DNA of 56,518 nucleotides from an uncultured Candidatus Saccharibacteria bacterium (GTDB taxonomy: Bacteria > Patescibacteriota > Minisyncoccia > Phycocordibacterales > UBA2100), in NCBI GenBank assembly GCA_964604085.1, contig CAZRXN010000001.1:1-56518 (forward strand). The letters are read 5' to 3'. Made by a program: the position numbers and the translations under genes. Below the pieces are notes generated by a model. That model did not search any database and had not been told where the DNA came from. It saw only the letters and a program-made list of their open reading frames with translations. Of this stretch, positions 20,249 through 49,256 are shown piece by piece; the first letter of the stretch is position 1, and each line of letters starts with the position of its first letter.

Positions 20249-22429
20249 ATGAAGCTTGTAATCGTAGAGTCTCCGGCAAAAGCGAAGACGATCGAAAAAT
20301 ATCTCGGCAACGGGTATACCGTCCGTGCATCGGTCGGCCACATTCGCGACCTGCCGAAAAGCAATAAGGATGCCGTCGACATCGAGGGCGGCTTCGTGCC
20401 GCGCTACCGCGTCGTCCCCGCGAAGCAGCAGGTTATCAATCAGCTTGCGGACGCCGCGGAAATAGCAGACGAGGTCATCCTCGCGACAGACCCCGACCGC
20501 GAAGGAGAGGCGATCGCGTGGCACCTGGCGCAGGCAATCGGGCTCAAAAAGCCCAAGCGTATCGTCTTCCATGAAATTACCGAGCATGCGGTGCGGGATG
20601 CGCTCGCGCACCCTCGCGCGATAGATGACAAGCTGCGCCGCGCGCAGGAAGCGAGGCGCGTGCTGGATCGCCTCTTCGGGTACGATCTCTCCGGCCTGAT
20701 CTGGAAGAAGGTGCGGTACGGCCTTTCCGCCGGACGGGTACAGTCCCCCGCGCTCCGCATCCTTATGGAGCGCGAGCGCGAGATACGCGCATTCGTGCCG
20801 GAGCAATTCTGGGTGTTGACGGCTCTCTTCGACACGAAAAAGGGAGAGCGCATTGTCGCCGCCTGCACAGAGGAGCCAAAGACGGAAAAGGAGGCCGAGC
20901 GCATCGTGAGCGCCGCTCAAAAGACCGATTGGCGCGTAGAAAAAGTGGATGAGAGCGAGCAGAAGCGCTCACCCCGTCCTCCCTTTACGACCTCCACGCT
21001 GCAGCAAACTGCCTCGACGCGTCTCGGATTCTCACCATCGCGCACGATGCGGATCGCGCAGAAGCTCTACGAAGGCGGGTACATCAGCTACATGCGTACC
21101 GACAGTACGAACCTCTCCAAGGAGGCACTCGGCCAGCTCGCTTCGGTCGCAAAGAGCGAGTTCGGCGACGAATATGTCTCTCCGCGCCAGTACAAGACCA
21201 AGAGTAAGTCGGCCCAGGAGGCGCACGAAGCGATTCGTCCGACCGACGCGCGGAAGCGTACCGCAGGCAACACAGACGAACAGAAGAAGCTGTATGCGTT
21301 GATACGCGCACGCGCGCTCGCAAGCCAGATGACGGAAGCACGAATCATGCGCACAACGATTACCGCAAGCGCATCGGATACGTCGATCCCGCATTTCGTC
21401 GCACGCGGCTCGCGCATACTATTTGAAGGATGGCTCAAGGCGGATCCTGCTGCCCGCGGCGAGGAATCGGAGCTCCCAAAGGCAGCGGCCGGCGATCCAC
21501 TCTCACTCGCTAATATCAGTTCGGAAGGTAAGGAAACGCAGCCGCCTGGCCGCTACACGGAAGCGGGGCTCGTAAAGGAGCTGGAGAAGCGCGGTATCGG
21601 CCGCCCGTCCACGTACGCGTCAATCATCAAGACCCTCGAGGATCGTGGCTACGTGGAGAAGCAGGGGCGAACGCTCATTCCGACAGCGACGGGAGATGTC
21701 GTTTCGAGCTTCATCGAGAATAATTTTTCCGATTACATCAGCGACACCTTCACTTCTGAAATGGAAGACGAGCTTGATGAGATCGCGGAGGGTAAGCGTG
21801 AGTATGAGAAGACACTCAAGGATTTCTACGGTCCGTTCACCAAAGCCGTCAAGAGCAAAGAGAAAATCGAGAAATTGACCAACATGGGACCCGCGCCCGA
21901 GGAATTCCCCTGCCCCGAGTGTGGCGCGCCGATGGTGTACAAGCTCTCGCGAAGCGGCCGTTTTATGAGCTGCTCGAGATTCCCCGACTGTCTGGGTGCT
22001 CGCAAGGAGGACGGGAGCATTATCGAGCCGCCCAAAGAGCTCGGCGAGCATTGCCCCGAGTGCGCCGACGGAAAGCTCATCGAGCGAGAAGGGCGTTTCG
22101 GGCGCTTTATCGCGTGCAGCAACTACCCAAAGTGCAAGTACGTCAAAAAAGACCCCGCAGAGGAGGCAAGATCGAAAACCGGCGTCACCTGCCCCGAGTG
22201 TGCAAAGGCAGGCCGTACGGGAGGTGAGATGGTGGAGCGGCGCGGACGCTTCGGCCCGTTCTTCTCATGCTCAAATTACCCCGAGTGCAAGTACGCGATC
22301 AAAGCGCGGCCGACGGGCGCTGTCTGTCCCGAGTGTGGGTCTCTCATGATGGAAGGTACTAAAACGATTCCGGAGCGCTGCTCAAACAAGGCGTGTCCGA
22401 TGCACAACCCCCACAAGCTGAAAAAATAA
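20249..22429 (+). CDS. topA: DNA topoisomerase I with four C-terminal C4 zinc ribbons
   Basis: MKLVIVESPAKAKTIEKYLG (TOPRIM), the active-site region SYMRTDS, and four CPEC...C..C repeats at the C-terminus. Confidence 0.95.
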   Translation: MKLVIVESPAKAKTIEKYLGNGYTVRASVGHIRDLPKSNKDAVDIEGGFVPRYRVVPAKQQVINQLADAAEIADEVILATDPDREGEAIAWHLAQAIGLKKPKRIVFHEITEHAVRDALAHPRAIDDKLRRAQEARRVLDRLFGYDLSGLIWKKVRYGLSAGRVQSPALRILMEREREIRAFVPEQFWVLTALFDTKKGERIVAACTEEPKTEKEAERIVSAAQKTDWRVEKVDESEQKRSPRPPFTTSTLQQTASTRLGFSPSRTMRIAQKLYEGGYISYMRTDSTNLSKEALGQLASVAKSEFGDEYVSPRQYKTKSKSAQEAHEAIRPTDARKRTAGNTDEQKKLYALIRARALASQMTEARIMRTTITASASDTSIPHFVARGSRILFEGWLKADPAARGEESELPKAAAGDPLSLANISSEGKETQPPGRYTEAGLVKELEKRGIGRPSTYASIIKTLEDRGYVEKQGRTLIPTATGDVVSSFIENNFSDYISDTFTSEMEDELDEIAEGKREYEKTLKDFYGPFTKAVKSKEKIEKLTNMGPAPEEFPCPECGAPMVYKLSRSGRFMSCSRFPDCLGARKEDGSIIEPPKELGEHCPECADGKLIEREGRFGRFIACSNYPKCKYVKKDPAEEARSKTGVTCPECAKAGRTGGEMVERRGRFGPFFSCSNYPECKYAIKARPTGAVCPECGSLMMEGTKTIPERCSNKACPMHNPHKLKK

Positions 22430-22434
22430 CGCCG

Positions 22435-22470
22435 TAGTATGTACTATAGTATATACTATGGTATATACTA
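22435..22470. repeat. three tandem 12-bp palindromic units (TAGTATGTACTA TAGTATATACTA TGGTATATACTA), locus 1
   Basis: Read directly from the sequence. The unit TAGTATATACTA equals its own reverse complement. Near-identical blocks occur at 35016 and 48361. Confidence 0.95.
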
Positions 22471-22480
22471 TTCGGCTTGC

Positions 22481-22519
22481 CCTAAAACAATCGCGCGGCG
22501 CCCAATGCGGGCGCCGCGC
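22481..22519 (-). terminator. rho-independent terminator of the Zn-ribbon gene
   Basis: 11-bp stem GCGCGGCGCCC/GGGCGCCGCGC with loop AATGC. On the minus strand it is followed by GATTGTTTTAG. Confidence 0.7.
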
Positions 22520-22532
22520 CTCACAGCCCCCT

Positions 22533-22685
22533 TTATTGCCCGGGCTCCTGCAAGAGAGTACCGCTGCAGTTAGGACAGCATGTCTCTACTGTTTGTTTCG
22601 ATCGAAGCCCGCACTTGTTGCACGCAAACCATCGCAGCGGCAATGCTGCGATGCTGCAACCGGCCGCCTTCAGCATCTCTATCAT
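22533..22685 (-). CDS. 50-aa zinc-ribbon protein (not in the ORF track)
   Basis: GGGAGG lies 5 nt upstream of the ATG. Translation: MIEMLKAAGCSIAALPLRWFACNKCGLRSKQTVETCCPNCSGTLLQEPGQ, with CxxC...CxxC. A terminator hairpin lies immediately downstream. Confidence 0.6.
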   Translation of the reverse strand: MIEMLKAAGCSIAALPLRWFACNKCGLRSKQTVETCCPNCSGTLLQEPGQ

Positions 22686-22781: not shown

Positions 22782-24371
22782 ATGGAACACATTCGCGAAC
22801 TTCAAGATATCCTCTCGGCCATCCAGACGAAATCGGAGGGCGAGACCGCTCTCATACAGAAGGCGTACGAATTCGCGAGGGAGGCGCACAAAAATCAGAC
22901 GCGCTACTCCGGCGATCCCTACTTTCTGCACCCGGCCGAGGTGGCATTTGAGCTCGCTGAAATGGGCGTCGATGCGCACGCCGTCGCTGCCGGCCTCTTG
23001 CACGATTGCCTCGAAGATGCGGGGGTTGCAGCTGCGGTTATTGAACGCGAGTTCGGGCCCGAAGTGCTCTCACTCGTACGTGGCGTCACCAAGCTTGGCG
23101 CGTTGCGCTATCGCGGACTTGAGCGTCACACCGAGTCGCTTCGCCGTCTATTCGCGGCGACGGCGCAGGATATCCGCGTACTGATCATCAAGCTGACGGA
23201 TCGTCTCCACAATGCGAAAACCCTTGAGCATGTCCCCGCAGAAAAGCGGCGTCGCATCGCGATCGAAACGCTTGAGATTTATGCGCCGATAGCAGACCGC
23301 CTCGGTATGAGCGTGCTCAAAATGGAGCTTGAGGATGCCGCCTTCCCCTATGCGTACCCTAAAGAGTATGAGAAAACGCGCGAGCTTCTGAAAGAGCGCA
23401 AGCGCGAAAACGAAAAGCGTCTCGAAAAGGCTGAGCATGACCTCAAGCGCATCCTCGCCGATCAGGGCATGCGTGATTTCCGTACCGAAGCCCGTGTGAA
23501 GGGCATGTACAGCCTGTTCCGAAAGCTCGAGAGGAAGCAGTGGGACATCGATGCGATTCACGACATCATGGCGCTTCGCATCATCGTCCGAACGCTCGCC
23601 GATTGCTACGCGGTGCTCGGGCTCGTGCACAAACAGTGGCGGCCGGTGCCCGGCAAGATCAAGGACTACATCGCATTCCCAAAGCCAAACGGCTATCAAT
23701 CCATCCACACTACCGTCTACACCGGCGATGGCGGCGCGCTCGAAATCCAGATTCGCACCGAAGCGATGCACCAGGAGGCACTCTACGGTATCGCGTCGCA
23801 CCTTACCTACAAGGAGCGACAGAGCGGACGCGGCGGAAGGCGCGGCAGCGGTCTGGATTGGATTCGGCAATTTCTCCCTGGTGGGGGCAGAGGTAAAGCC
23901 GCAACCGTAGCTGCCCATACGACGGCAACAGCGGAGCGCGATGTGCCGCAGTGGGTGAAGGAGCTCGCTCGCGCCGACGCCCAGGGTGAGCAATCGGAAG
24001 AGTATCTCGCGAGCTTAAAGACGGATTTCTTCAGCCATCGCGTATTCGTCTTTACACCCAAGGGCGACGTTATCGATCTGCCGCTCGCCGCGACGCCCAT
24101 CGACTTCGCGTATGCGATTCACTCCGAAGTGGCAAATAAGATGGCGGGCGCGCGGGTCAACGGCAAGATGGTGTCGATAGATAGGCCACTGCACAACGGC
24201 GACATGGTCGAGATCGTAACGAAAGCGTCCGCGAAGCCGTCGCGCAAATGGTACGACATCGCCAAAACGACGCTCGCAAAGAAGATGATCCGTGCAGCGC
24301 TTGCGAGCGACACGCCCGAGCAGGCCCCCGCCCCGAAACGCGGGAAGCAACGAGGTCAGTCTAAACGGTAA
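22782..24371 (+). CDS. RelA/SpoT-family bifunctional (p)ppGpp synthetase/hydrolase, short form
   Basis: HD domain (HPAEV...LHDCLED), synthetase domain (RIIVRT...GYQSIHT), and TGS (VFVFTPKGDVIDLP...GARVNG). Ends soon after TGS. Confidence 0.9.
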   Translation: MEHIRELQDILSAIQTKSEGETALIQKAYEFAREAHKNQTRYSGDPYFLHPAEVAFELAEMGVDAHAVAAGLLHDCLEDAGVAAAVIEREFGPEVLSLVRGVTKLGALRYRGLERHTESLRRLFAATAQDIRVLIIKLTDRLHNAKTLEHVPAEKRRRIAIETLEIYAPIADRLGMSVLKMELEDAAFPYAYPKEYEKTRELLKERKRENEKRLEKAEHDLKRILADQGMRDFRTEARVKGMYSLFRKLERKQWDIDAIHDIMALRIIVRTLADCYAVLGLVHKQWRPVPGKIKDYIAFPKPNGYQSIHTTVYTGDGGALEIQIRTEAMHQEALYGIASHLTYKERQSGRGGRRGSGLDWIRQFLPGGGRGKAATVAAHTTATAERDVPQWVKELARADAQGEQSEEYLASLKTDFFSHRVFVFTPKGDVIDLPLAATPIDFAYAIHSEVANKMAGARVNGKMVSIDRPLHNGDMVEIVTKASAKPSRKWYDIAKTTLAKKMIRAALASDTPEQAPAPKRGKQRGQSKR

Positions 24372-25356
24372 AATTACGCGCGGAGTAGAGGTCTGCGTCC
24401 TCTTTCTGCTCCTCCCTGTAGGCAGGTTCCGGCTCACTCGCCGCCCCGACGGGTCCGTCTTCAGGTACGCGCGGCTCTGCATCTTCGGACACGGCACTCT
24501 CCTGCGCATTCGCAGCGGTAGTATTCGCCTGCTCCTCCATCTGCTTGATCTGCGCAGCCAGCTTCATACACAAGTGCGCGAGGTCTTCAGAAGAAAAGAA
24601 ATCAATGAGTACCTTTCCTCCATTCTCCTTTTTTTCGATGCGTACGCGTGTCCCGAGCTGCTCCGTAAGCTGTCGTTCGAGAATGAGAAGGTCCGGCGTC
24701 AGGTCCGATTTGCGCGCTCGCTCCACGGCGATGCGCCGCGAGAGCTGCTCCGCGTCGCGCACCGTGAGGTGGCGCGTAACGATCTCCTTAAACAGCGTCT
24801 GCTGCTCCTCCGGTTTATCGATGAGCATGAGAAGGGGACGTGTGTGCCCTTCGTTTATAGATCCGCCTGCGAGCGCATCGAGCATTCCCTTTGGCAGCAT
24901 GAGGATGCGCAACGTGTTGGAGACATACTCGCGACTCTTCCCTACTTTCTTGCCTATATCTACGTGCTTCATCCCGAACTCGTCTACGAGCTGCTTGAAT
25001 GCCGTGGCCCGATCTACAGGATTGAGATCTTCGCGCTGGAGATTCTCGATAATCGCGAGCTCGAGCTTCAGGCGATCGGAATCCTCGGGCCGTCGGATCA
25101 CCACCGGCACCTGATAGACGCCTGCTTTTTTCGCTGCCCGGAGACGACGCTCACCTGCGATCAGCTCGTACTCCACGGTAATACCCTCGCCAGGCCGCTC
25201 CGTTTCCCTTTTGGTAACAGTGAGAGGATTTAATACGCCATACTGGCGGATGGATTCAGCAAGCGAATTGAGGGCCGCCTCGTCGAACGTTTTACGCGGC
25301 TGAAAGGGGTTTGGCTTAATTCGATCTACTTCCACCCAGAAGATCGAGTCGCTCAT
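24361..25356 (-). CDS. parB: ParB/Spo0J family protein with an acidic C-terminal tail
   Basis: IKPNPFQPRKTFDE and LIAGERRLRAAKKAGVYQVPVVIR (ParB box). HTH segment VDIGKKVGKSREYVSNTLRIL. Start at 25356 (AGAGG upstream), alternatives 25371 and 25383. No parA adjacent. Confidence 0.85.
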   Translation of the reverse strand: MSDSIFWVEVDRIKPNPFQPRKTFDEAALNSLAESIRQYGVLNPLTVTKRETERPGEGITVEYELIAGERRLRAAKKAGVYQVPVVIRRPEDSDRLKLELAIIENLQREDLNPVDRATAFKQLVDEFGMKHVDIGKKVGKSREYVSNTLRILMLPKGMLDALAGGSINEGHTRPLLMLIDKPEEQQTLFKEIVTRHLTVRDAEQLSRRIAVERARKSDLTPDLLILERQLTEQLGTRVRIEKKENGGKVLIDFFSSEDLAHLCMKLAAQIKQMEEQANTTAANAQESAVSEDAEPRVPEDGPVGAASEPEPAYREEQKEDADLYSARNFTV

Positions 25357-25441
25357 GTACGCCTCTTTCATAAAATCCTCCATAACAGCAGTATACCACG
25401 AGCGTTGTCTGCTGAATTGAATCCGAGTACACTCTGGTATT

Positions 25442-25522
25442 GCCGGAGTGGCGGAATGGCAGACGCGCACGACTCAAAATCGTGTCTCGCAAGAGGTGAG
25501 GGTTCAAGTCCCTCCTCCGGCA
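25442..25522 (+). tRNA. tRNA-Leu (CAA)
   Basis: Acceptor GCCGGAG/CTCCGGC, anticodon stem CACGA/TCGTG with loop CTCAAAA, long variable arm, T-arm GAGGG-TTCAAGT-CCCTC. Confidence 0.9.
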
Positions 25523-27159: not shown

Positions 27160-27243
27160 GCGTCGGTGGCGGAGTGGTCAATCGCACGTGGCTGTAGACC
27201 ACGCGGGCTTTGCCCTACGGGGGTTCGAATCCCTCCCGGCGCA
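27160..27243 (+). tRNA. tRNA-Tyr (GTA), class II with a long variable arm
   Basis: Acceptor GCGTCGG/CCGGCGC (one G-U pair), anticodon stem CGTGG/CCACG with loop CTGTAGA, variable arm CGGGCTTTGCCCTAC, T-arm GGGGG-TTCGAAT-CCCTC, discriminator A. Confidence 0.9.
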
Positions 27244-27297
27244 CACAATGTAAAATGGCGGCCCCTGCGGTCGCCATTTTGCATTGGGAGCAGGATT
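27225..27297 (+). repeat. direct repeat copy A (tRNA-Tyr T-loop to 3' end plus downstream terminator)
   Basis: 73 nt beginning TCGAATCCCTCCCGGCGCACACAATG... It matches 27370..27442 with 4 mismatches. Confidence 0.9.
27252..27280 (+). terminator. tRNA-Tyr terminator hairpin
   Basis: AAAATGGCGGCC-CCTGC-GGTCGCCATTTT, flanked by A and T runs. A second copy lies at about 27397..27425. Confidence 0.75.
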
Positions 27298-27369: not shown

Positions 27370-27442
27370 TCGAATCCCTCCCGGCGCACACAATGCGAAA
27401 TGGCGGCCCCTGCGGTCGCCATTTTACATTGGGAGCAGAATT
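27370..27442 (+). repeat. direct repeat copy B (orphan tRNA-Tyr 3' segment plus terminator copy)
   Basis: Begins TCGAATCCCTCCCGGCGCACACAATGCGAAATGG... There is no tRNA 5' part upstream of it. Confidence 0.9.
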
Positions 27443-33192: not shown

Positions 33193-34704
33193 ATGGCATC
33201 CGCTTCCAAAGCAACCCGTATGGAGAGGCCGCCCATTGTGGCGGTCCTTGGGCACGTGGATCATGGTAAATCCACGCTTCTCGATCACATCCGAAAGTCC
33301 AATACGGTCGCGGGCGAAGCTGGCGGCATAACCCAGCACGTCGCCGCGTATGAAGTTGAGCACGCCGCCGAAGGAGGTGAGCAGAAGCGCATCACGTTCA
33401 TCGATACGCCCGGCCATGCCGCGTTCCACGCGATACGCGCGCGAGGCGCTAATATCGCCGACGTGGCGATCCTCGTCGTAGCCGCGGACGACGGCGTGAA
33501 GGCGCAAACACTCGAAGCGCTCCAGAGCATCGAGAGCTCGGGCATTCCCTTCGTTATCGCGATCAATAAGATCGATAAGCCTAATGCTTCGCTCGACCGC
33601 ACGCACGCCTCGCTGCTCGAGCACAAAATATACGTGGAAAAGATGGGCGGCTCGATACCCTGGGCGGCCATTTCGGCGAAAACAGGACAGGGCGTCTCCG
33701 AGCTGCTCGATCTCGTACTCCTGGTGGCGCAGCTACAGGAGCTCACGGGCGACCCATCCAAAGAGGCCGAGGGGTACGTCATAGAGGCGCACCGCGACCA
33801 AAAGCGCGGTATAGCCGCAACGCTCATCATTACCGACGGGACACTAAGACGCGGCGACGCAGTGCTCGCTGGCCGCGCGATCGCGCCGGTTCGCATAATG
33901 GAAGATCACACCGGACGCGCGCTCGAAGAAGCGTCTTTCTCCGCGCCCGTCCAGCTTGTCGGCTTCGATGAGCTGCCGGAAGTGGGCGTGCCTTTCACCA
34001 CCTTTCCGGCCAAGCGTGCCGCGGAGGATGCCCGGAAGACCGCGCGCGCTGCCGAAGCCCCCGAAGCAACCGCAGCGCTCGAAGAGGAAGGGGCGCGATT
34101 CATCCTCCCCATAATCGTACGCGCCGATGCGACGGGCTCCCTTGAAGCGATCGCACACGAGGTTTCCCGTCTCGGCGATGAATTCGCTGGCGTCCGTATC
34201 GTGCACTCCGGCGTAGGGTCCGTGTCCGAAGCCGATATCAAGGCGGCGCTCGGTGGCGACCGCCCGGCGGCTGTCGTGGGATTCAATGTCGGCGTGGACG
34301 CGCTCGCGCGCGAGCATGCCCGCCAGCATGGCGTCTCCATCGAGACGTTCGACATTATCTATAAGCTCACAGAGCGGCTAGAAGAGCTCATGCGGGAAGC
34401 TGCGCCGACGCGTACGGTGGAAGAAATTGTCGGCCGCGCAAAGGTGCTAAAGGTATTCTCGCAGCGCAAGGAAACACACGTACTTGGCGGCGTCGTCCTC
34501 TCCGGCCGCATCGAACGCGGCGCCCTCGTGCGCGCCATTCGACGCGGTGAGCCCCTCGGAGTCGGCTCCATCGAGAATATCCAGTCGCATAAGCAGAACG
34601 TCGATCGAATTGAAGAAGGGGGCGAGTTTGGCGCGGAAATAGAGATCGACGCAACGCTCGCGCAAGGAGACACCCTCGAGTGTTTTTACGAAAAGCAGGT
34701 ATGA
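33193..34704 (+). CDS. infB: translation initiation factor IF-2, short form lacking the long N-terminal region
   Basis: PPIVAVLGHVDHGKSTLLD (G1), DTPGH (G3), NKID (G4), and the C-terminal domains. The ORF part 32830..33192 is antisense to the desulfurase gene and rejected. Confidence 0.9.
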   Translation: MASASKATRMERPPIVAVLGHVDHGKSTLLDHIRKSNTVAGEAGGITQHVAAYEVEHAAEGGEQKRITFIDTPGHAAFHAIRARGANIADVAILVVAADDGVKAQTLEALQSIESSGIPFVIAINKIDKPNASLDRTHASLLEHKIYVEKMGGSIPWAAISAKTGQGVSELLDLVLLVAQLQELTGDPSKEAEGYVIEAHRDQKRGIAATLIITDGTLRRGDAVLAGRAIAPVRIMEDHTGRALEEASFSAPVQLVGFDELPEVGVPFTTFPAKRAAEDARKTARAAEAPEATAALEEEGARFILPIIVRADATGSLEAIAHEVSRLGDEFAGVRIVHSGVGSVSEADIKAALGGDRPAAVVGFNVGVDALAREHARQHGVSIETFDIIYKLTERLEELMREAAPTRTVEEIVGRAKVLKVFSQRKETHVLGGVVLSGRIERGALVRAIRRGEPLGVGSIENIQSHKQNVDRIEEGGEFGAEIEIDATLAQGDTLECFYEKQV

Positions 34705-35018
34705 GCCGCCGCACCGATCAGGTCTCGCAGGAGCTCGCCCAGCACGCGGGCACTTTTCTCTCGCTGAAGTCGAGCCACACATCGCTCATTACGGTTACCC
34801 GCGCGGACGTATCGCCCGATCTGCGCTCCGCTACGATTTACCTATCCGTGCTGCCAGAGCCGCAAGAGAGCGCCGCGCTCGATTTCGCAAAACGCCAGCG
34901 TGGGCCCTTCCGCGAATACTTGAAAGGGCACGCTCGTCTCAAATACGTTCCGACAGTTGATTTTCTCATCGACGGGGGCGAGAAGAATCGACAGCGCATC
35001 GATGAACTCACGCGATAG
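34701..35018 (+). CDS. rbfA: ribosome-binding factor A
   Basis: ATGA start/stop overlap with infB. LITVTRADVSPDLRSATIYLSV is a typical RbfA segment. Confidence 0.85.
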   Translation: MSRRTDQVSQELAQHAGTFLSLKSSHTSLITVTRADVSPDLRSATIYLSVLPEPQESAALDFAKRQRGPFREYLKGHARLKYVPTVDFLIDGGEKNRQRIDELTR

Positions 35019-35051
35019 TATATACTATAGTATATACTATGGTATATACTA
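35016..35051. repeat. three tandem 12-bp palindromic units (TAGTATATACTA x2 plus TGGTATATACTA), locus 2
   Basis: Read directly from the sequence. The first unit starts with the rbfA TAG stop codon. Confidence 0.95.
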
Positions 35052-35098
35052 TTCCCCGCCCCTCAAGCGCCGGGCGAACGTGGTATATTTGGGGTCTT

Positions 35099-35173
35099 GG
35101 CCCGATGGTGAAGGGGTAACACGGCGGTCTGCAAAACCGCTACGCGCGGGTTCGAGTCCCGCTCGGGCCTCCA
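35099..35173 (+). tRNA. tRNA-Cys (GCA) with encoded CCA
   Basis: Acceptor GGCCCGA/TCGGGCC, anticodon stem GCGGT/ACCGC with loop CTGCAAA, T-arm GCGGG-TTCGAGT-CCCGC, discriminator T (U73, as expected for Cys). Confidence 0.9.
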
Positions 35174-37805: not shown

Positions 37806-37810
37806 AATCT

Positions 37811-37847
37811 TTGGGCGCCGCCCCTGTGCGGCGCCCAAACCTTTTTT
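37811..37847 (+). terminator. rho-independent terminator
   Basis: TTGGGCGCCGC-ccctgt-GCGGCGCCCAA followed by ACCTTTTTTG. Confidence 0.8.
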
Positions 37848-39212: not shown

Positions 39213-39581
39213 TTAGAATCCAGGGTAGCCGCCGGTCGTAACCTGAATACCCTTCGGTACGATCGGATCGGTAGACGTTACCTTGAAGGTGCTCTGCAGA
39301 AGGCGGATGATGCCCCATATGGAAACCATCACGAAAATCGCGACGATGCCCCAAAGCATGAGATTGAGACCTGCCTTCGCATTATCGGATCCGAGAGCGC
39401 GCAAGTACTGGATGAGGCCCCAAAAGAATACGAGGATCGCGACAGTGATGAGGAGGCCGATCGCCGCGTTCAAGAACGTATTGATGAGGGCGAGGGTATT
39501 GAGAAGCGTCTGCGCTGATGCGAGTGATGGCAGGAGCAGCGAGGCTGTCGCAAGTGTGGAAACGGCTATACGTGAGCGCAT
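39213..39581 (-). CDS. small secreted two-TM protein, paralog family member 4
   Basis: Signal peptide ending ASAQ. Two TM helices. Motif LMLWGIVAIFVMVSIWGII. Confidence 0.7.
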   Translation of the reverse strand: MRSRIAVSTLATASLLLPSLASAQTLLNTLALINTFLNAAIGLLITVAILVFFWGLIQYLRALGSDNAKAGLNLMLWGIVAIFVMVSIWGIIRLLQSTFKVTSTDPIVPKGIQVTTGGYPGF

Positions 39582-47692: not shown

Positions 47693-48289
47693 TCAGCGCG
47701 CCGAGTTCAGCGCATTCATCGCGTGCACGGGAGTGCTGGTAAGCGACGTCTCGAGCGCCGCCGTCGTCCGCTTGAATACGCTCTTTAGCGCATCCTGTTC
47801 CTCTTTCTTGAACCTGCCCAGGATGAAATCGTGCACCGCGTCTTCGCCCTGCGGCTTTTTCGCTTTCCCGCGAGAGACGGGTGAGACGCCGACGCGAATG
47901 CGCCAGAAGAGCTTCGTCTTCACCGCGCGCATAATGCTCTCGAGCCCCTTATGTCCGCCGCTGCCGCGATCGAACGCCATCTTTGCCACTCCGATCGGAA
48001 GATCGAGATCGTCGTATACGACGATCAGCTTCTTCGCTTGAGGCACGTTTTTTACGAACTTCGTTACCGCGCTCCCCGACTTATTCATATACGTGTCGGG
48101 TAAGACGAGGATTGAGAGCGCGCGCTCGACGACACACTTCGCCACTTCCGCGTTCGCCTTCGCGTCGACTTTCCACTCGGACGCATCGTGCTTCGACGCA
48201 AAATGACGCACGGCCATGCGCCCCGCATTGTGCCGCGTGTTTTCGTACTCCTCTCCCGGGTTACCCAAGCCGACGATGACCCATGTCAT
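47693..48289 (-). CDS. pth: peptidyl-tRNA hydrolase
   Basis: MTWVIVGLGNPGEEYENTRHNAGRM is the canonical Pth N-terminus. GSGGHKGL is also present. Confidence 0.9.
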   Translation of the reverse strand: MTWVIVGLGNPGEEYENTRHNAGRMAVRHFASKHDASEWKVDAKANAEVAKCVVERALSILVLPDTYMNKSGSAVTKFVKNVPQAKKLIVVYDDLDLPIGVAKMAFDRGSGGHKGLESIMRAVKTKLFWRIRVGVSPVSRGKAKKPQGEDAVHDFILGRFKKEEQDALKSVFKRTTAALETSLTSTPVHAMNALNSAR

Positions 48290-48360
48290 ACGACAGAAGT
48301 GTACAGGAAACGGTTCGCGGTGCACAGTTGATAGAAAATATGCGTTCAGCTGGAGTAAAA

Positions 48361-48396
48361 TAGTATATACTATAGTATGTACTATAGTATATACTA
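48361..48396. repeat. three tandem 12-bp palindromic units (TAGTATATACTA TAGTATGTACTA TAGTATATACTA), locus 3
   Basis: Read directly from the sequence. Lies between divergent pth and lepB. Confidence 0.95.
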
Positions 48397-48614: not shown

Positions 48615-49256
48615 ATGAATGATCCGATGATGCAAAAGACGACATCACCGGATGGAATGACCTCCGACTCTGATTCGAGCGCACGCACGGAGAATCCCCA
48701 ATCCCAAAAATCTTCCGAAGGCCGCTCGCTTTTCGGCTATACCATCGCCGCGCTCGCTGTCGCGCTCATCGTGCGCTTCTTTATCGCTGCCCCCTACGTC
48801 GTTTCCGGCGCCTCCATGGAGCCGAATTTCGATAATTGGGATTATCTCATCACCGATCGGCTCACCTACCGCTTCGAAGAGCCCTCCCGGGGCGACATTA
48901 TCGTCTTTCACCTTCCCCAGGACCCCTCTCGCACGCTCATTAAGCGCATTATCGGCCTGCCCGGCGAGACGATCCGCATGAATGAGGACGGCGTCGAGGT
49001 ATTTAACGACGCGCATCCAGACGGACTGGTCCTCGTAGAGCCATATCTTTCACCGGAGAATCGCGGCGGGCTCACGCCGGAGACGATAGAGCTGCAAAAT
49101 GATCAGTATTTCGTACTCGGAGACAACAGGCGCGTTTCGTCCGACTCGCGCATTTGGGGGCCGCTCCCGAAGGAGAACATCATCGGCCGCGTACTCATTC
49201 GGCTCTTCCCGTTCTCGCACGTGGGCGTGCTGCCCGCCGAAGCGCGATATGAATAG
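48615..49256 (+). CDS. lepB: signal peptidase I
   Basis: TM anchor, the catalytic Ser box VSGASMEPN, the Lys box LIKRIIGLPGE, and GDNRRVSSDSR. Confidence 0.9.
   Translation: MNDPMMQKTTSPDGMTSDSDSSARTENPQSQKSSEGRSLFGYTIAALAVALIVRFFIAAPYVVSGASMEPNFDNWDYLITDRLTYRFEEPSRGDIIVFHLPQDPSRTLIKRIIGLPGETIRMNEDGVEVFNDAHPDGLVLVEPYLSPENRGGLTPETIELQNDQYFVLGDNRRVSSDSRIWGPLPKENIIGRVLIRLFPFSHVGVLPAEARYE

What the first reader, a model, noticed from the sequence alone, without database searches (positions are those of the whole stretch)
22435..22470. Dispersed 36-bp element: three tandem copies of the perfect 12-bp palindrome TAGTATATACTA (locus 1 of 3)
Five nt after the topA stop lies TAGTATGTACTA-TAGTATATACTA-TGGTATATACTA. 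Near-identical 36-bp blocks occur at 35016..35051 and 48361..48396.

The consensus unit is its own reverse complement. The units are strictly head-to-tail with a 12-bp period, and the variants are single substitutions (A>G in the unit core, or A>G at unit position 2). In DNA this GC-rich, a pure A/T-dominated block recurring three times is not chance.

The three loci have different transcriptional contexts. This one lies between the 3' ends of convergent topA and a Zn-ribbon gene. Locus 2 overlaps a stop codon upstream of a tRNA. Locus 3 lies between divergent promoters. So a plain promoter or terminator role does not explain all three.

A DNA-level role seems more likely: an array of three dimer-binding operators, a centromere/partition-like or nucleoid-organising site, a recombination site, or a REP-like family. 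An orphan parB lies about 2 kb away, and I saw no canonical TGTTNCACGTGAAACA parS by eye.

Spacing between loci is 12.6 and 13.3 kb, from only three data points. I do not recognise this motif from any described system.
Basis: partly seen in the sequence, partly recalled or inferred. Interest (0 to 1): 0.7.

Follow-up and report, generated by a model that had tools for sequence, protein, structure and literature searches.

The report
Dispersed operator arrays for AbrB/MazE-type protein
Three identical 36-bp blocks in this Kaiserbacteria-like (CPR) genome fragment are most likely triple binding sites, with a built-in promoter -10 box, for a tiny AbrB/MazE-fold DNA-binding protein; this points to an undescribed regulator-and-site network in a group of bacteria whose gene regulation is almost unknown.

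Summary

The motif is not private to this genome. Arrays of 2-10 units occur in 102 public contigs, many of them CPR/Parcubacteria, and in none of 2.9 million viral contigs.

In about 18 of those loci the array lies 5-27 nt upstream of a small SpoVT/AbrB/MazE-fold gene. This is either a stand-alone ~53-aa family I call S, an AbrB-type vapB of a vapBC operon, or brnT.

I then ran a protein-first test. Eight S homologues were fetched by protein sequence alone. All carry 2-4 GTAT(A/G)TAC-type cores, one lineage with a variant core, at an exact 12-bp register just upstream of the ATG. The 4-bp linker between cores varies.

vapB loci place a TTGACA-like -35 box 16-17 nt from the unit's TATACT. The E. 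coli MazE operator (three adjacent dimer sites, site a TGATATATACTG) is a published precedent.

The window itself encodes no such protein. An S-gene contig that is compositionally indistinguishable from the window carries the same array.

What the orphan copies do is unresolved. They favour convergent gene ends, and the closest syntenic relative lacks them. I rate this a new variant of a known kind.

The parts
22435..22470 (.). Array 1: three 12-bp units (cores GTATGTAC, GTATATAC, GTATATAC at 22437, 22449, 22461). It lies 5 nt after the topA stop, in a convergent intergenic region. The TGG variant is in the right-hand unit.
35016..35051 (.). Array 2: three units. Its first TAG is the stop codon of rbfA. 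The TGG variant is in the right-hand unit, facing tRNA-Cys 47 nt downstream.
48361..48396 (.). Array 3: three units (central core GTATGTAC), flanked by AAAA and TTT. It lies between divergent pth (-) and lepB (+).
35081..35089 (+). TGGTATATT, an extended -10-like element 10 nt before tRNA-Cys. It resembles the left half of a TGG unit. It is probably a second, proximal tRNA promoter.
   Evidence: read from the sequence; no TSS data
35099..35173 (+). tRNA-Cys (GCA), the nearest downstream gene of array 2.
22493..22519 (-). GC-rich 12-bp-stem hairpin, 22 nt from array 1. On the - strand it is followed by GATTGTTTTA, so it is probably the terminator of the Zn-ribbon ORF (22533-22685, -). Similar array-plus-hairpin pairs occur in L083, L006, L011 and L060.
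20249..22429 (+). topA. Its 3' end abuts array 1. The product is identical to P0164, and its closest named relatives are Candidatus Kaiserbacteria.
34680..35018 (+). rbfA. Its stop codon is supplied by array 2.
47693..48325 (-). pth. The ORF as listed starts 35 nt from array 3. The likely true start (MTWVIVGLGNPG) is about 70 nt from the array.
   Evidence: the start is my reading of the sequence
48615..49256 (+). lepB (signal peptidase I), 218 nt right of array 3.

Best explanation
Each 36-bp block is an array of three adjacent binding sites. Each site has an 8-bp palindromic core, GTATATAC, and the sites sit in a strict 12-bp register. The binder is a dimeric SpoVT/AbrB/MazE-fold (swapped-hairpin) DNA-binding protein.

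The most likely binder is a stand-alone ~53-aa protein of a CPR family I call S. Its consensus is xxKxxRKLxKTSxYSYxxVIPKExIxKYGWKExQKLTIxDxGRGxLEVRDW. It would be encoded elsewhere in the genome.

Each unit also contains a -10-like TATACT, or TGGTATATA in the TGG variant. Where the array faces a gene it can therefore serve as a promoter that the bound protein occludes. That is the arrangement at the protein's own gene and at vapBC operons in other genomes.

In this window the three arrays are orphan operators:
- Array 2 probably drives or controls tRNA-Cys.
- Array 3 probably controls the divergent pth and lepB genes.
- Array 1 sits at convergent gene ends. There a bound protein array could only act as a roadblock, an insulator or a structural site, or be a tolerated relic.

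Shown here (by computation): the sequence facts, the association with S, vapB and brnT genes, the conserved core and phase, and the protein fold.

Inferred: actual binding, one dimer per unit, repression, and the effect at each window locus.
For: 1. The arrays are real and occur all-or-none.

2. A motif-first survey found arrays of 2-10 units in 11 genome contigs and 91 metagenome contigs. In about 18 distinct loci the array ends 5-27 nt before one of three gene types:
- a PF04014 (MazE/AbrB) gene of the stand-alone S family (L001, L019/L032, L074, L099, L039, L041, L067, and probably L079);
- a VapB antitoxin (NCBIfam VapB, E=2e-34; L030, L031, L033, L053, L054, L056, L065, L070);
- brnT (L012, L052/L058).

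3. A protein-first survey is independent of the motif. S homologues P0002, P0003, P0006, P0007/P0005, P0008, P0010, P0013 and P0018 were fetched by protein sequence.
- Six of the eight have 2-4 GTAT(A/G)TAC cores (<=1 mismatch) at exactly 12-bp spacing, ending 4-22 nt before the ATG.
- P0003 has the same layout with the variant core GTAAGTAC/GTACTTAC.
- P0013 has GTATATAC followed by a degenerate ATATATAT.
- The 4-bp linker differs between lineages (TATA, GTCC/ATGG, GTGC, CATG).
- The chance rate of one phased pair is about 0.09 per 100 kb.

4. In vapB loci a TTGACA/TTGACG/TTGACT box lies 16-17 nt from the TATACT of unit 1 or 2. The array therefore covers the spacer, the -10 and the start site. 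Several S genes look leaderless, with TATACT 6-7 nt before the ATG.

5. The TGG variant is the terminal, gene-facing unit in 15 of 20 asymmetric arrays.

6. S has the AbrB/MazE fold. Pfam PF04014 matches it. The AlphaFold2 model has pLDDT 82, and its top Foldseek hits are MazE, AbrB-N, SpoVT, Sso7c4 and VapB, though none is individually significant.

7. Published precedent: E. coli MazE dimers bind three adjacent sites, and site a is TTGATATATACTGT (PMC4333400). AbrB-type VapB binds operators that overlap the -10 and -35 boxes (PMC3378870).

8. Links to this organism:
- The S-gene contig L103 has the array TAGTACATACTA TAGTATATACTA TGGTATATACGA. Its tetranucleotide correlation with the window is 0.960. 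The window's own 4.3-kb chunks score 0.92-0.97 against the rest. L103 shares no other sequence with the window.
- In the related Ga0326597 population (topA 70% aa identity), an S gene (L039) and at least 16 dispersed arrays co-occur with matching composition and the same TGATATATACTA variant.
Against: - No S, VapB or other AbrB/MazE-type gene lies in the 56.5-kb window. That this genome encodes a binder rests on composition matching only.
- brnT-brnA loci carry the same array although BrnA is not AbrB-fold (my knowledge). One cognate fold therefore does not explain every case.
- In the high-GC CPR-like loci the orphan arrays lie mostly between convergent genes: 9 convergent, 3-5 tandem and 0 divergent, using my crude ORF calls. 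They often supply the stop codon. That is not where operators are expected.
- Array 1 has no gene to regulate on either side.
- The closest syntenic relative, L119 (topA 80% aa identity), has no array in 22 kb. The arrays are therefore dispensable and patchily distributed.
- About 20 kb and 12 kb around the S genes in L117 and L118 show no orphan arrays. Dispersal is lineage-specific.
- No binding or transcription data exist.
Confidence: 0.6

Rival explanations
1. A REP-like, hairpin-forming element that acts as nucleic-acid structure rather than as a specific protein site. The 36-nt perfect palindrome would fold in the 3' UTR RNA as a stabiliser, a weak intrinsic terminator or an RNase III site, or would extrude as a DNA cruciform. 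It would spread or persist mainly where insertions are tolerated.
For: - Strong predicted hairpins: -22 to -26 kcal/mol, z -4.9 to -6.2.
- All four substitutions in the window are A>G on the + strand. They give G.U pairs in the sense-strand RNA of topA and rbfA: -25.6 vs -17.0 and -22.3 vs -19.3 kcal/mol.
- In CPR-like loci the arrays are enriched between convergent genes and abut stop codons.
- The flank just after the array is T-rich: T 58-64% at position +1, G 0-2%. Several cases have an A-run on one side and a T-run on the other, e.g. L008 and window array 3.
- Many metagenome contigs break at the arrays.
- Unit number is polymorphic: L059 vs L069, and 10 units in L085.
- Distribution among close relatives is patchy.
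Against: - Upstream of S genes it is the 8-bp core and the 12-bp phase that are conserved. The full palindrome is not, because the linkers vary and break the long hairpin.
- Variant units are mostly uncompensated: TGATATATACTA in L002, L025 and L060; TAGTATATAGTA in L017. Only L066 is symmetric.
- The same sequence occurs across 19-60% GC and in several phyla. REP families are species-specific (my knowledge).
- The stems are almost pure A/U, and the U-tract at window arrays 1 and 2 is only TT. The genome has ordinary GC-rich terminators.
- No transposase or RAYT-like gene was seen next to the arrays.
- The TGG bias is equally well explained as an extended -10.
Confidence: 0.2
2. Plain portable sigma-70-type promoter modules with stacked -10 boxes (TATACT, TATAGT, TGGTATATA) and no dedicated binding protein.
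For: - L031, L033 and L053 read TTGACA-17 nt-TATACT. L065 reads TTGACA-17-TGGTATATA. Shine-Dalgarno sequences and start codons follow at the right distances.
- S genes have TATACT 6-7 nt before the ATG.
- The TGG unit faces genes.
- Three unrelated gene types (S, vapB, brnT) share the module.
- The promoters of this genome's tRNAs use similar -10 boxes, CATACT and TACAAT.
Against: - A promoter does not need a conserved spacer, dyad symmetry or an exact 12-bp repeat, yet these are what is conserved.
- The window arrays have no -35 box and were not called promoter-like by the scan.
- Array 1 and many CPR-like arrays lie between convergent gene ends with nothing to transcribe.
- Units never occur singly.
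Confidence: 0.1
3. A non-canonical parS/centromere or nucleoid-organising site bound by the ParB encoded at 24361-25470.
For: - ParB is present without an adjacent parA in the stretch examined, and no canonical parS lies within 3 mismatches in the window.
- The arrays are palindromic and dispersed, and one lies about 2 kb from parB.
Against: - Elsewhere the arrays sit in the promoters of AbrB/MazE-type genes, not near parB.
- The syntenic relative L119 keeps parB but has no arrays.
- The same motif occurs in phyla with ordinary ParB and parS.
- The unit is unrelated to the parS sequence, and ParB-type HTH proteins bind 16-bp palindromes, not 12-bp tandems (my knowledge).
Confidence: 0.02

Closest known systems
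E. coli mazEF operator 'cab' bound by MazE (Marianovsky 2001; Zorzini 2015, PMC4333400)
   Same: - Three adjacent sites, each bound by one dimer of a swapped-hairpin (AbrB/MazE-fold) protein, overlapping the promoter.
- Site a, TGATATATACTG, differs from the unit here at 2-3 positions. It is identical in 11 of 12 positions to the variant unit TGATATATACTA seen in L002, L025, L039, L060 and L066.
- Sites b and c have GTATCTAC cores.
   Different: - In E. coli the sites are irregularly spaced (an 'alternating palindrome'). They occur once, at the TA operon itself, and MazF acts as co-repressor.
- Here the register is an exact 12 bp.
- The copies are dispersed next to housekeeping genes.
- The candidate binder has no toxin-binding tail and no partner toxin.
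vapBC operators vapO1/vapO2 bound by AbrB-type VapB (Salmonella/Shigella; PMC3378870)
   Same: - Operators overlap the -10 and -35 boxes of the TA promoter and are bound by AbrB-fold antitoxin dimers.
- Eight vapBC loci found here carry the very same array in that position.
   Different: - The published operators are two inverted repeats bridged by VapC, and they act locally only.
- The window has no vapBC.
B. subtilis AbrB/Abh/SpoVT transition-state regulators
   Same: Same DNA-binding fold. One small protein controls many dispersed promoters.
   Different: - AbrB has a C-terminal multimerisation domain, binds as a tetramer and has only a loose site preference.
- S is the bare N-domain, with a sharply defined core and phase.
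Archaeal stand-alone AbrB-like small proteins (Sso7c4, PDB 2l66; 'histone-like protein' 5itm)
   Same: About 50-aa single-domain SpoVT/AbrB-fold dimers, proposed as chromatin or nucleoid proteins. They are among the top structural matches.
   Different: Their binding is reported as largely non-specific. No dispersed specific arrays are known. Sequence similarity to S is insignificant (E=0.6).
REP/BIME elements of enterobacteria and pseudomonads
   Same: Short dispersed palindromes in intergenic DNA, enriched at gene 3' ends and between convergent genes, with variable copy number.
   Different: - REPs are imperfect GC-rich palindromes, are species-specific and are linked to a RAYT transposase.
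- Here the units are A/T-rich head-to-tail 12-mers, are shared across phyla, and are linked to a small DNA-binding protein gene.
MetJ met-box arrays and ParR-parC iterons (my knowledge)
   Same: Head-to-tail arrays of short sites. Each is bound by a small beta-strand-inserting dimer, with cooperativity along the array.
   Different: Different fold (ribbon-helix-helix), different periods (8 bp; 10-11 bp) and different sequences.

Membership tests
Autoregulatory operator of an AbrB/MazE-fold protein (TA-type or stand-alone) | The site lies in the promoter of the gene that encodes the binding protein. | tested here: not met
   No AbrB/MazE/VapB/S-type ORF lies next to any window array or anywhere in the window. 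The feature is met at 14 or more S loci and 8 vapB loci in other contigs. The window copies are therefore orphan sites, not the autoregulatory operator itself.
Autoregulatory operator of an AbrB/MazE-fold protein (TA-type or stand-alone) | Repeated dyad-symmetric sites of about 8-14 bp, one per dimer, with sequence conserved among homologous systems. | tested here: met
   The core GTAT(A/G)TAC at a 12-bp register is conserved upstream of divergent S genes (31-70% identity) while the linkers vary. It resembles E. coli MazE site a.
Autoregulatory operator of an AbrB/MazE-fold protein (TA-type or stand-alone) | The protein physically binds the site. | not testable with these tools
   Needs EMSA, DAP-seq or ChIP.
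parS / ParB centromere | A 16-bp palindrome related to TGTTNCACGTGAAACA. | tested here: not met
   The unit is unrelated to it. No parS-like site occurs within 3 mismatches in the window.
parS / ParB centromere | Co-occurrence with parB across relatives. | tested here: not met
   L119 keeps parB in the same synteny but has no arrays in 22 kb.
REP/BIME-RAYT system | A dispersed intergenic palindrome enriched at gene 3' ends. | tested here: met
   All three window copies are intergenic. CPR-like loci give 9 convergent, 3-5 tandem and 0 divergent contexts (crude ORF calls).
REP/BIME-RAYT system | An associated RAYT (IS200/IS605-type) transposase, and a repeat sequence specific to the species. | tested here: not met
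   The gene recurrently flanked by the arrays is the S/VapB type, not a transposase. The same sequence occurs in several phyla at 19-60% GC. A RAYT elsewhere in this genome could not be checked.
MITE / IS terminal repeat | A larger conserved body with terminal inverted repeats and target-site duplications. | tested here: not met
   Similarity among the three loci ends within 1-3 nt of the 36-bp block.
Intrinsic (Rho-independent) terminator | A G+C-rich stem followed by a U-tract, at a gene 3' end. | tested here: not met
   The stems have 2 G/C per 12 nt. The tails are TT, TT and TTT. The terminator scan did not call the arrays, whereas it called ordinary GC-rich terminators nearby. Two of the three arrays are at 3' ends.
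Sigma-70-type promoter | A -10 hexamer, with either a -35 box at 16-18 nt or an extended TGn, and a downstream gene. | tested here: inconclusive
   The -10-like TATACT is in every unit, and TGGTATATA is in the gene-facing unit of arrays 1 and 2. There is no -35 box. A downstream gene exists for arrays 2 and 3 but not for array 1. In vapB loci of other contigs the full -35/17/-10 geometry is met.
Known RNA families (Rfam) | A match to a curated covariance model. | tested here: not met
   Only the 8 tRNAs reach the gathering score in the window.

The most novel reading that the evidence does not exclude
A stand-alone, toxin-less MazE/AbrB-domain protein (the S family, about 274 clusters at 50% identity; the named members seen come from CPR phyla) has become a genome-wide DNA-binding factor in some Parcubacteria/Kaiserbacteria. 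Its triple-site arrays have spread to tens of positions per roughly 1-Mb genome. They would act as repressible promoter cassettes in front of housekeeping genes such as tRNAs, pth and lepB. Between convergent genes they would act as protein roadblocks or insulators. That would amount to a domesticated antitoxin-type regulator with its own dispersed 'operator repeat' family, in organisms thought to have almost no transcriptional regulation.
Probability: 0.3. Interest if true: 0.72.

Novelty: new variant of a known kind. Interest (0 to 1): 0.6.

Why it matters
CPR/Patescibacteria have tiny genomes, few recognisable transcription factors and no genetic system, so almost nothing is known about how they regulate genes.

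This work pairs a sharply defined DNA site (core GTATATAC, 12-bp register, 2-4 copies) with a specific ~53-aa protein family. That gives a directly testable regulator-operator pair, because both a synthetic protein and a 36-bp oligonucleotide are trivial to make.

It would also be a clear case of TA-type operator DNA and an antitoxin-like DNA-binding domain working outside a toxin-antitoxin locus.

The array could further be used as a compact repressible promoter part.

If the orphan copies prove to be inert, the result still documents a new dispersed-repeat family, and it explains why metagenome assemblies of these organisms break at this sequence.

Tried and rejected
- GntR/HutC operator. 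GTATATAC fits GT-N-TA-N-AC from memory. I dropped this because no GntR gene was associated and the AbrB/MazE association emerged.
- Regulon by flanking-gene function. Pfam scans of 53 'upstream-context' and 66 'downstream-context' flanking ORFs showed diverse housekeeping genes and no common pathway.
- tRNA association. It is not general; only a few arrays lie near tRNAs.
- Positional conservation after topA. The array is present in L096 (topA 70% aa identity) but absent in the closer relative L119. I therefore dropped it as an argument for selection.
- Compensatory change in the long hairpin. Only L066 is symmetric, and most variant units are uncompensated.
- Phage origin. There are 0 matches in the viral contigs.
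- Exact-sequence look-ups of the window's relA and NTP-transferase products found nothing.
- Literature searches for the 12-mer and the 20-mer found nothing relevant. Searches for AbrB in Patescibacteria and for CPR promoter motifs also found nothing.
- PDB sequence search with the S profile gave no significant hit. NCBIfam has no model for S.
- My ORF caller is crude (longest non-overlapping ORFs) and produces spurious ORFs in high-GC DNA, for example in L052. The context counts are therefore approximate.
Full report
**1. The observation**

- A search for TAGTATATACTA with up to 2 mismatches finds 9 units, all in the three arrays, against 0.24 expected.
- Relaxing to 3 mismatches adds only 5 scattered singletons, against 3.7 expected in all.
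- Core pairs (GTATATAC, <=1 mismatch) in 12-bp register occur only at these loci and never in 200 shuffles.

So the element is all-or-none: always three units, never one. Similarity between the loci ends within 1-3 nt of the 36-bp block, so it is not the tip of a larger repeat.

The context statements are also right.
- Array 1 starts 5 nt after the topA stop. It faces a small Zn-ribbon ORF and its GC-rich terminator.
- The first TAG of array 2 is the rbfA stop codon. tRNA-Cys begins 47 nt downstream.
- Array 3 lies between divergent pth and lepB.
- ParB is encoded at 24361-25470. No parS-like site exists in the window even at 3 mismatches.

**2. Whose genome it is**

The genes are housekeeping genes of a small-genome bacterium. 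The topA product read from 20249 is identical to a protein on an NCBI contig of 56,518 nt. Its nearest named relatives (77-78% identity) are Candidatus Kaiserbacteria, Parcubacteria and Paceibacterota. This is a CPR/Patescibacteria MAG of about 59% G+C.

**3. The motif elsewhere**

A two-unit pattern was scanned through the public collections.
- It hit 11 contigs among species-representative genomes. These include three contigs of one Parcubacteria MAG, another Patescibacteria MAG and a Saccharibacteria MAG. Single two-unit copies also occur in MAGs labelled Fervidobacterium, Bdellovibrionales, Bacteriovoracaceae, Gammaproteobacteria and Cyanobacteria (UBA1221), plus an unclassified rumen MAG, RUG10582.
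- It hit 91 metagenome contigs.
- It hit none of 2.9 million viral contigs.

Arrays have 2-10 units in DNA of 19-60% G+C. About a dozen metagenome contigs begin or end at an array, as expected for a repeat that breaks assemblies. One locus appears with 3 units in one contig and 2 in another (L059 vs L069).

One metagenome, Ga0326597, contributes 17 array-bearing contigs of about 50% G+C. Among them are a topA orthologue (70% aa identity to the window's, array again just after topA) and a relA orthologue with an array upstream.

**4. The key association**

I listed the ORFs that start just beyond each array. A recurrent neighbour appeared.
- In L001, L019/L032, L074, L099, L039, L041 and L067, and probably L079, the array ends 5-27 nt before a 52-59-aa gene.
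- The products align into one family, which I call S. Eight residues are invariant: K6, P20, K21, W29, Q33, K34, D49 and W50.
- Pfam assigns these proteins to PF04014, the MazE/AbrB/SpoVT domain. NCBIfam has no model for them.
- They stand alone. The next genes are ordinary ones: a tadA-like deaminase, yebC, a ZIP transporter.

In eight other loci the array precedes an AbrB-type vapB (NCBIfam VapB, E=2e-34). A 132-133-aa ORF follows and overlaps the vapB stop. It starts M(T/K)YMLDTN, which I read as a PIN-type VapC; I did not scan it. In three loci the array precedes brnT.

**5. An independent test**

The survey above was motif-first, so I reversed it. S homologues were collected by protein search (profile search: 274 clusters at E<=1e-3, mostly 50-65 aa). 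Named members come from candidate division Kazan, Paceibacterota and the Patescibacteria group. Their contigs were fetched by exact protein look-up.

Every one of the eight distinct homologues has the same architecture just upstream of its ATG:
- P0002: TAGTACATACTA TAGTATATACTA TGGTATATACGA
- P0006: a four-unit array
- P0018 (Kazan): TAGTATATAGCA TAGTATATACTA
- P0010: GTATATAC-CATG-GTATATAC
- P0007/P0005: GTATGTAC-GTCC-GTATGTAC-ATGG-GTATATAC
- P0008: GTATATAC-GTGC-GTATATAC
- P0013: GTATATAC-GTAC-ATATATAT
- P0003: the same layout with a different core, GTACTTAC/GTAAGTAC

What is conserved is the 8-bp palindromic core and the exact 12-bp register, not the 4-bp linker. A chance pair of phased cores is expected about once per megabase. 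This is the signature of a protein that reads the core and polymerises in phase. It is not the signature of a structure that needs the whole palindrome.

**6. The promoter content of the array**

In the vapB loci a TTGACA, TTGACG or TTGACT box lies 16-17 nt upstream of the TATACT inside unit 1 or unit 2. A Shine-Dalgarno sequence and a start codon follow. L031, L033 and L053 read TTGACA-TAGTATATACTATAGTA-TATACT. The array is therefore the spacer, the -10 box and the start-site region of a consensus promoter, which is the classical position for an autorepressor.

Several S genes have TATACT 6-7 nt before the ATG, which suggests leaderless mRNAs.

The A>G variant that turns TAG into TGG creates TGGTATATA, an extended -10. 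It sits in the terminal, gene-facing unit in 15 of 20 asymmetric arrays. In the window both TGG units are the right-hand unit. In array 2 it faces tRNA-Cys. That gene also has a proximal TGGTATATT 10 nt before the mature 5' end.

**7. The protein and the precedent**

The AlphaFold2 model of S has pLDDT 82. Its best structural matches are all SpoVT/AbrB-superfamily members: MazE, a Sulfolobus AbrB-like 'histone-like' protein, AbrB-N, SpoVT, Sso7c4 and VapB. The individual E-values are not significant, as expected for a 53-residue monomer of an intertwined dimer.

The literature gives a close precedent. The E. coli mazEF operator holds three adjacent MazE-dimer sites, CTCGTATCTACAATGTAGATTGATATATACTGTATCTACATATGATAGCGT. 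Site a is TTGATATATACTGT, and GTATCTAC cores lie in sites b and c (PMC4333400). TGATATATACTA is one of the commonest variant units in the arrays. AbrB-type VapB of Salmonella likewise binds operators over the -10 and -35 boxes (PMC3378870). No paper in the library contains the 12-mer in a relevant context, or mentions AbrB together with Patescibacteria.

**8. Does this organism have the protein?**

The window does not encode it. Profile and pairwise searches of all six-frame ORFs with S, VapB and classical AbrB/MazE sequences give nothing better than E about 1. None of the ten small window ORFs I scanned is a recognisable regulator.

The S-gene contig L103 (P0002) is nonetheless a good candidate.
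- Its tetranucleotide correlation with the window is 0.960. The window's own 4.3-kb pieces score 0.92-0.97 against the rest, and the syntenic relative L119 scores 0.957. Unrelated CPR contigs score 0.5-0.8.
- It shares no sequence with the window except the array.
- P0002 is also recorded from an NCBI source.

L103 therefore comes from the same genome or a very close relative.

In the Ga0326597 population, the S contig L039 matches the composition of the 16 array-bearing contigs as well as they match each other (0.88 against 0.87-0.96). It also shares their TGATATATACTA dialect.

**9. What does not fit neatly**

- In the high-G+C, CPR-like contigs the orphan arrays are mostly between convergent genes. 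My crude ORF calls give 9 convergent, 3-5 tandem and 0 divergent. In the lower-G+C contigs they are mostly upstream of genes: 1 convergent, 12 tandem, 5 divergent.
- Arrays often provide the stop codon (L003, L010, L011, L018, L043, L092, window array 2).
- They are often followed within 5-30 nt by an ordinary GC-rich hairpin (window, L083, L006, L011, L060).
- The flanks are T-rich on the outside.
- The predicted RNA hairpins are strong. In the window they are stronger on the sense strand, because every substitution is A>G on that strand.
- The closest syntenic relative, L119 (topA 80% identical, same dprA-topA-relA-parB-miaA order, same G+C), has no array in 22 kb. The arrays are therefore gained and lost quickly, and the shared position after topA in L096 is not good evidence for selection.
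- The 20 kb and 12 kb around the S genes of L117 and L118 contain no orphan arrays. Dispersal has happened only in some lineages.
- The brnTA loci have the array although BrnA is not an AbrB-fold protein (my knowledge).

These points keep a REP-like, structure-based reading alive. They also leave the function of array 1 open.

**10. Verdict**

The best-supported reading is that the blocks are triple operator arrays, with built-in -10 elements, for an AbrB/MazE-fold dimer. The probable binder is the stand-alone S protein. They are present here as orphan copies.
- Array 2 is placed to drive or gate tRNA-Cys.
- Array 3 is placed to drive or gate pth and lepB.
- Array 1 can only be a roadblock, an insulator, a structural site or a relic.

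I put this at about 0.6. A structure-only REP-like element gets about 0.2, a plain promoter module about 0.1 and a ParB site about 0.02.

The mechanism class is known: antitoxin/AbrB-type operators. The following appear to be undescribed: the exact 12-bp tandem design, the dispersal to housekeeping loci, the toxin-less cognate family, and the CPR setting. I therefore classify it as a new variant of a known kind. It is of moderate-to-good interest because it is cheaply testable.

Noticed in passing
window 27225-27297 and 27370-27442: A 73-nt direct repeat, 95% identical. It begins inside the 3' end of tRNA-Tyr (27160-27244) and includes the hairpin AAAATGGCGGCCCCTGCGGTCGCCATTTT. It looks like a duplicated tRNA 3' end plus terminator, or an att-like scar of an integrated element (D5/I1).
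   Followed up: no
window 22533-22685 (-): A 50-aa four-cysteine Zn-ribbon ORF, convergent with topA and divergent from relA. A comparable Cys-rich ORF lies in the same position in L083 (4117-4392, -). The closer relative L119 has no such ORF in a 226-nt topA-relA gap.
   Followed up: partly
L085 (Ga0209364_1035279) 1699-1818: A ten-unit array, (TAGTATATACCA)x10, the longest seen. It shows that the unit can expand like a minisatellite.
   Followed up: no
L059 102-137 vs L069 29-52: The same locus (reverse complements) from one metagenome carries 3 units in one contig and 2 in the other. This is a copy-number polymorphism of the array.
   Followed up: partly
L067 9450-9550: A second array on this contig lies 24 nt from a fragment that matches only the last 18 residues of the S protein. 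It sits next to a LlaMI-type restriction endonuclease gene. It looks like a decayed duplicate of the array-plus-S module.
   Followed up: partly
L004, L016, L007, L040; L009, L020, L098: Two-unit arrays occur in non-CPR contexts. One set lies between a thioredoxin gene and a sigma-70-family gene, in a MAG labelled Cyanobacteria (UBA1221) and the unclassified rumen MAG RUG10582. The other lies 80 nt upstream of a rubredoxin gene, before gltX, in Fervidobacterium. No AbrB-type gene is adjacent, and what binds there is unknown.
   Followed up: partly
L114 (P0003 locus) 320-371: This S homologue has the same 12-bp register but a different core: GAGTACTTACTT AAGTAAGTACTC GAGTAAGTACTT. The protein has H instead of R in the conserved xRKL and H instead of Y in GYSY. 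This may be co-variation of protein and site. The TAGTAAGTACTA unit also appears in L038 and L055.
   Followed up: no
window 39213-39581 (-): A T4SS-pilin-family (PF18895) small protein lies among several unannotatable small ORFs at 36.4-39.6 kb. That region has lower G+C (about 54%) and is rich in tRNA genes. It may be an accessory island.
   Followed up: no
window 37810-37839: A perfect 12-bp-stem GC-rich hairpin, flanked by A-rich and T-rich runs and called as a terminator on both strands. It shows that this genome uses ordinary intrinsic terminators.
   Followed up: no
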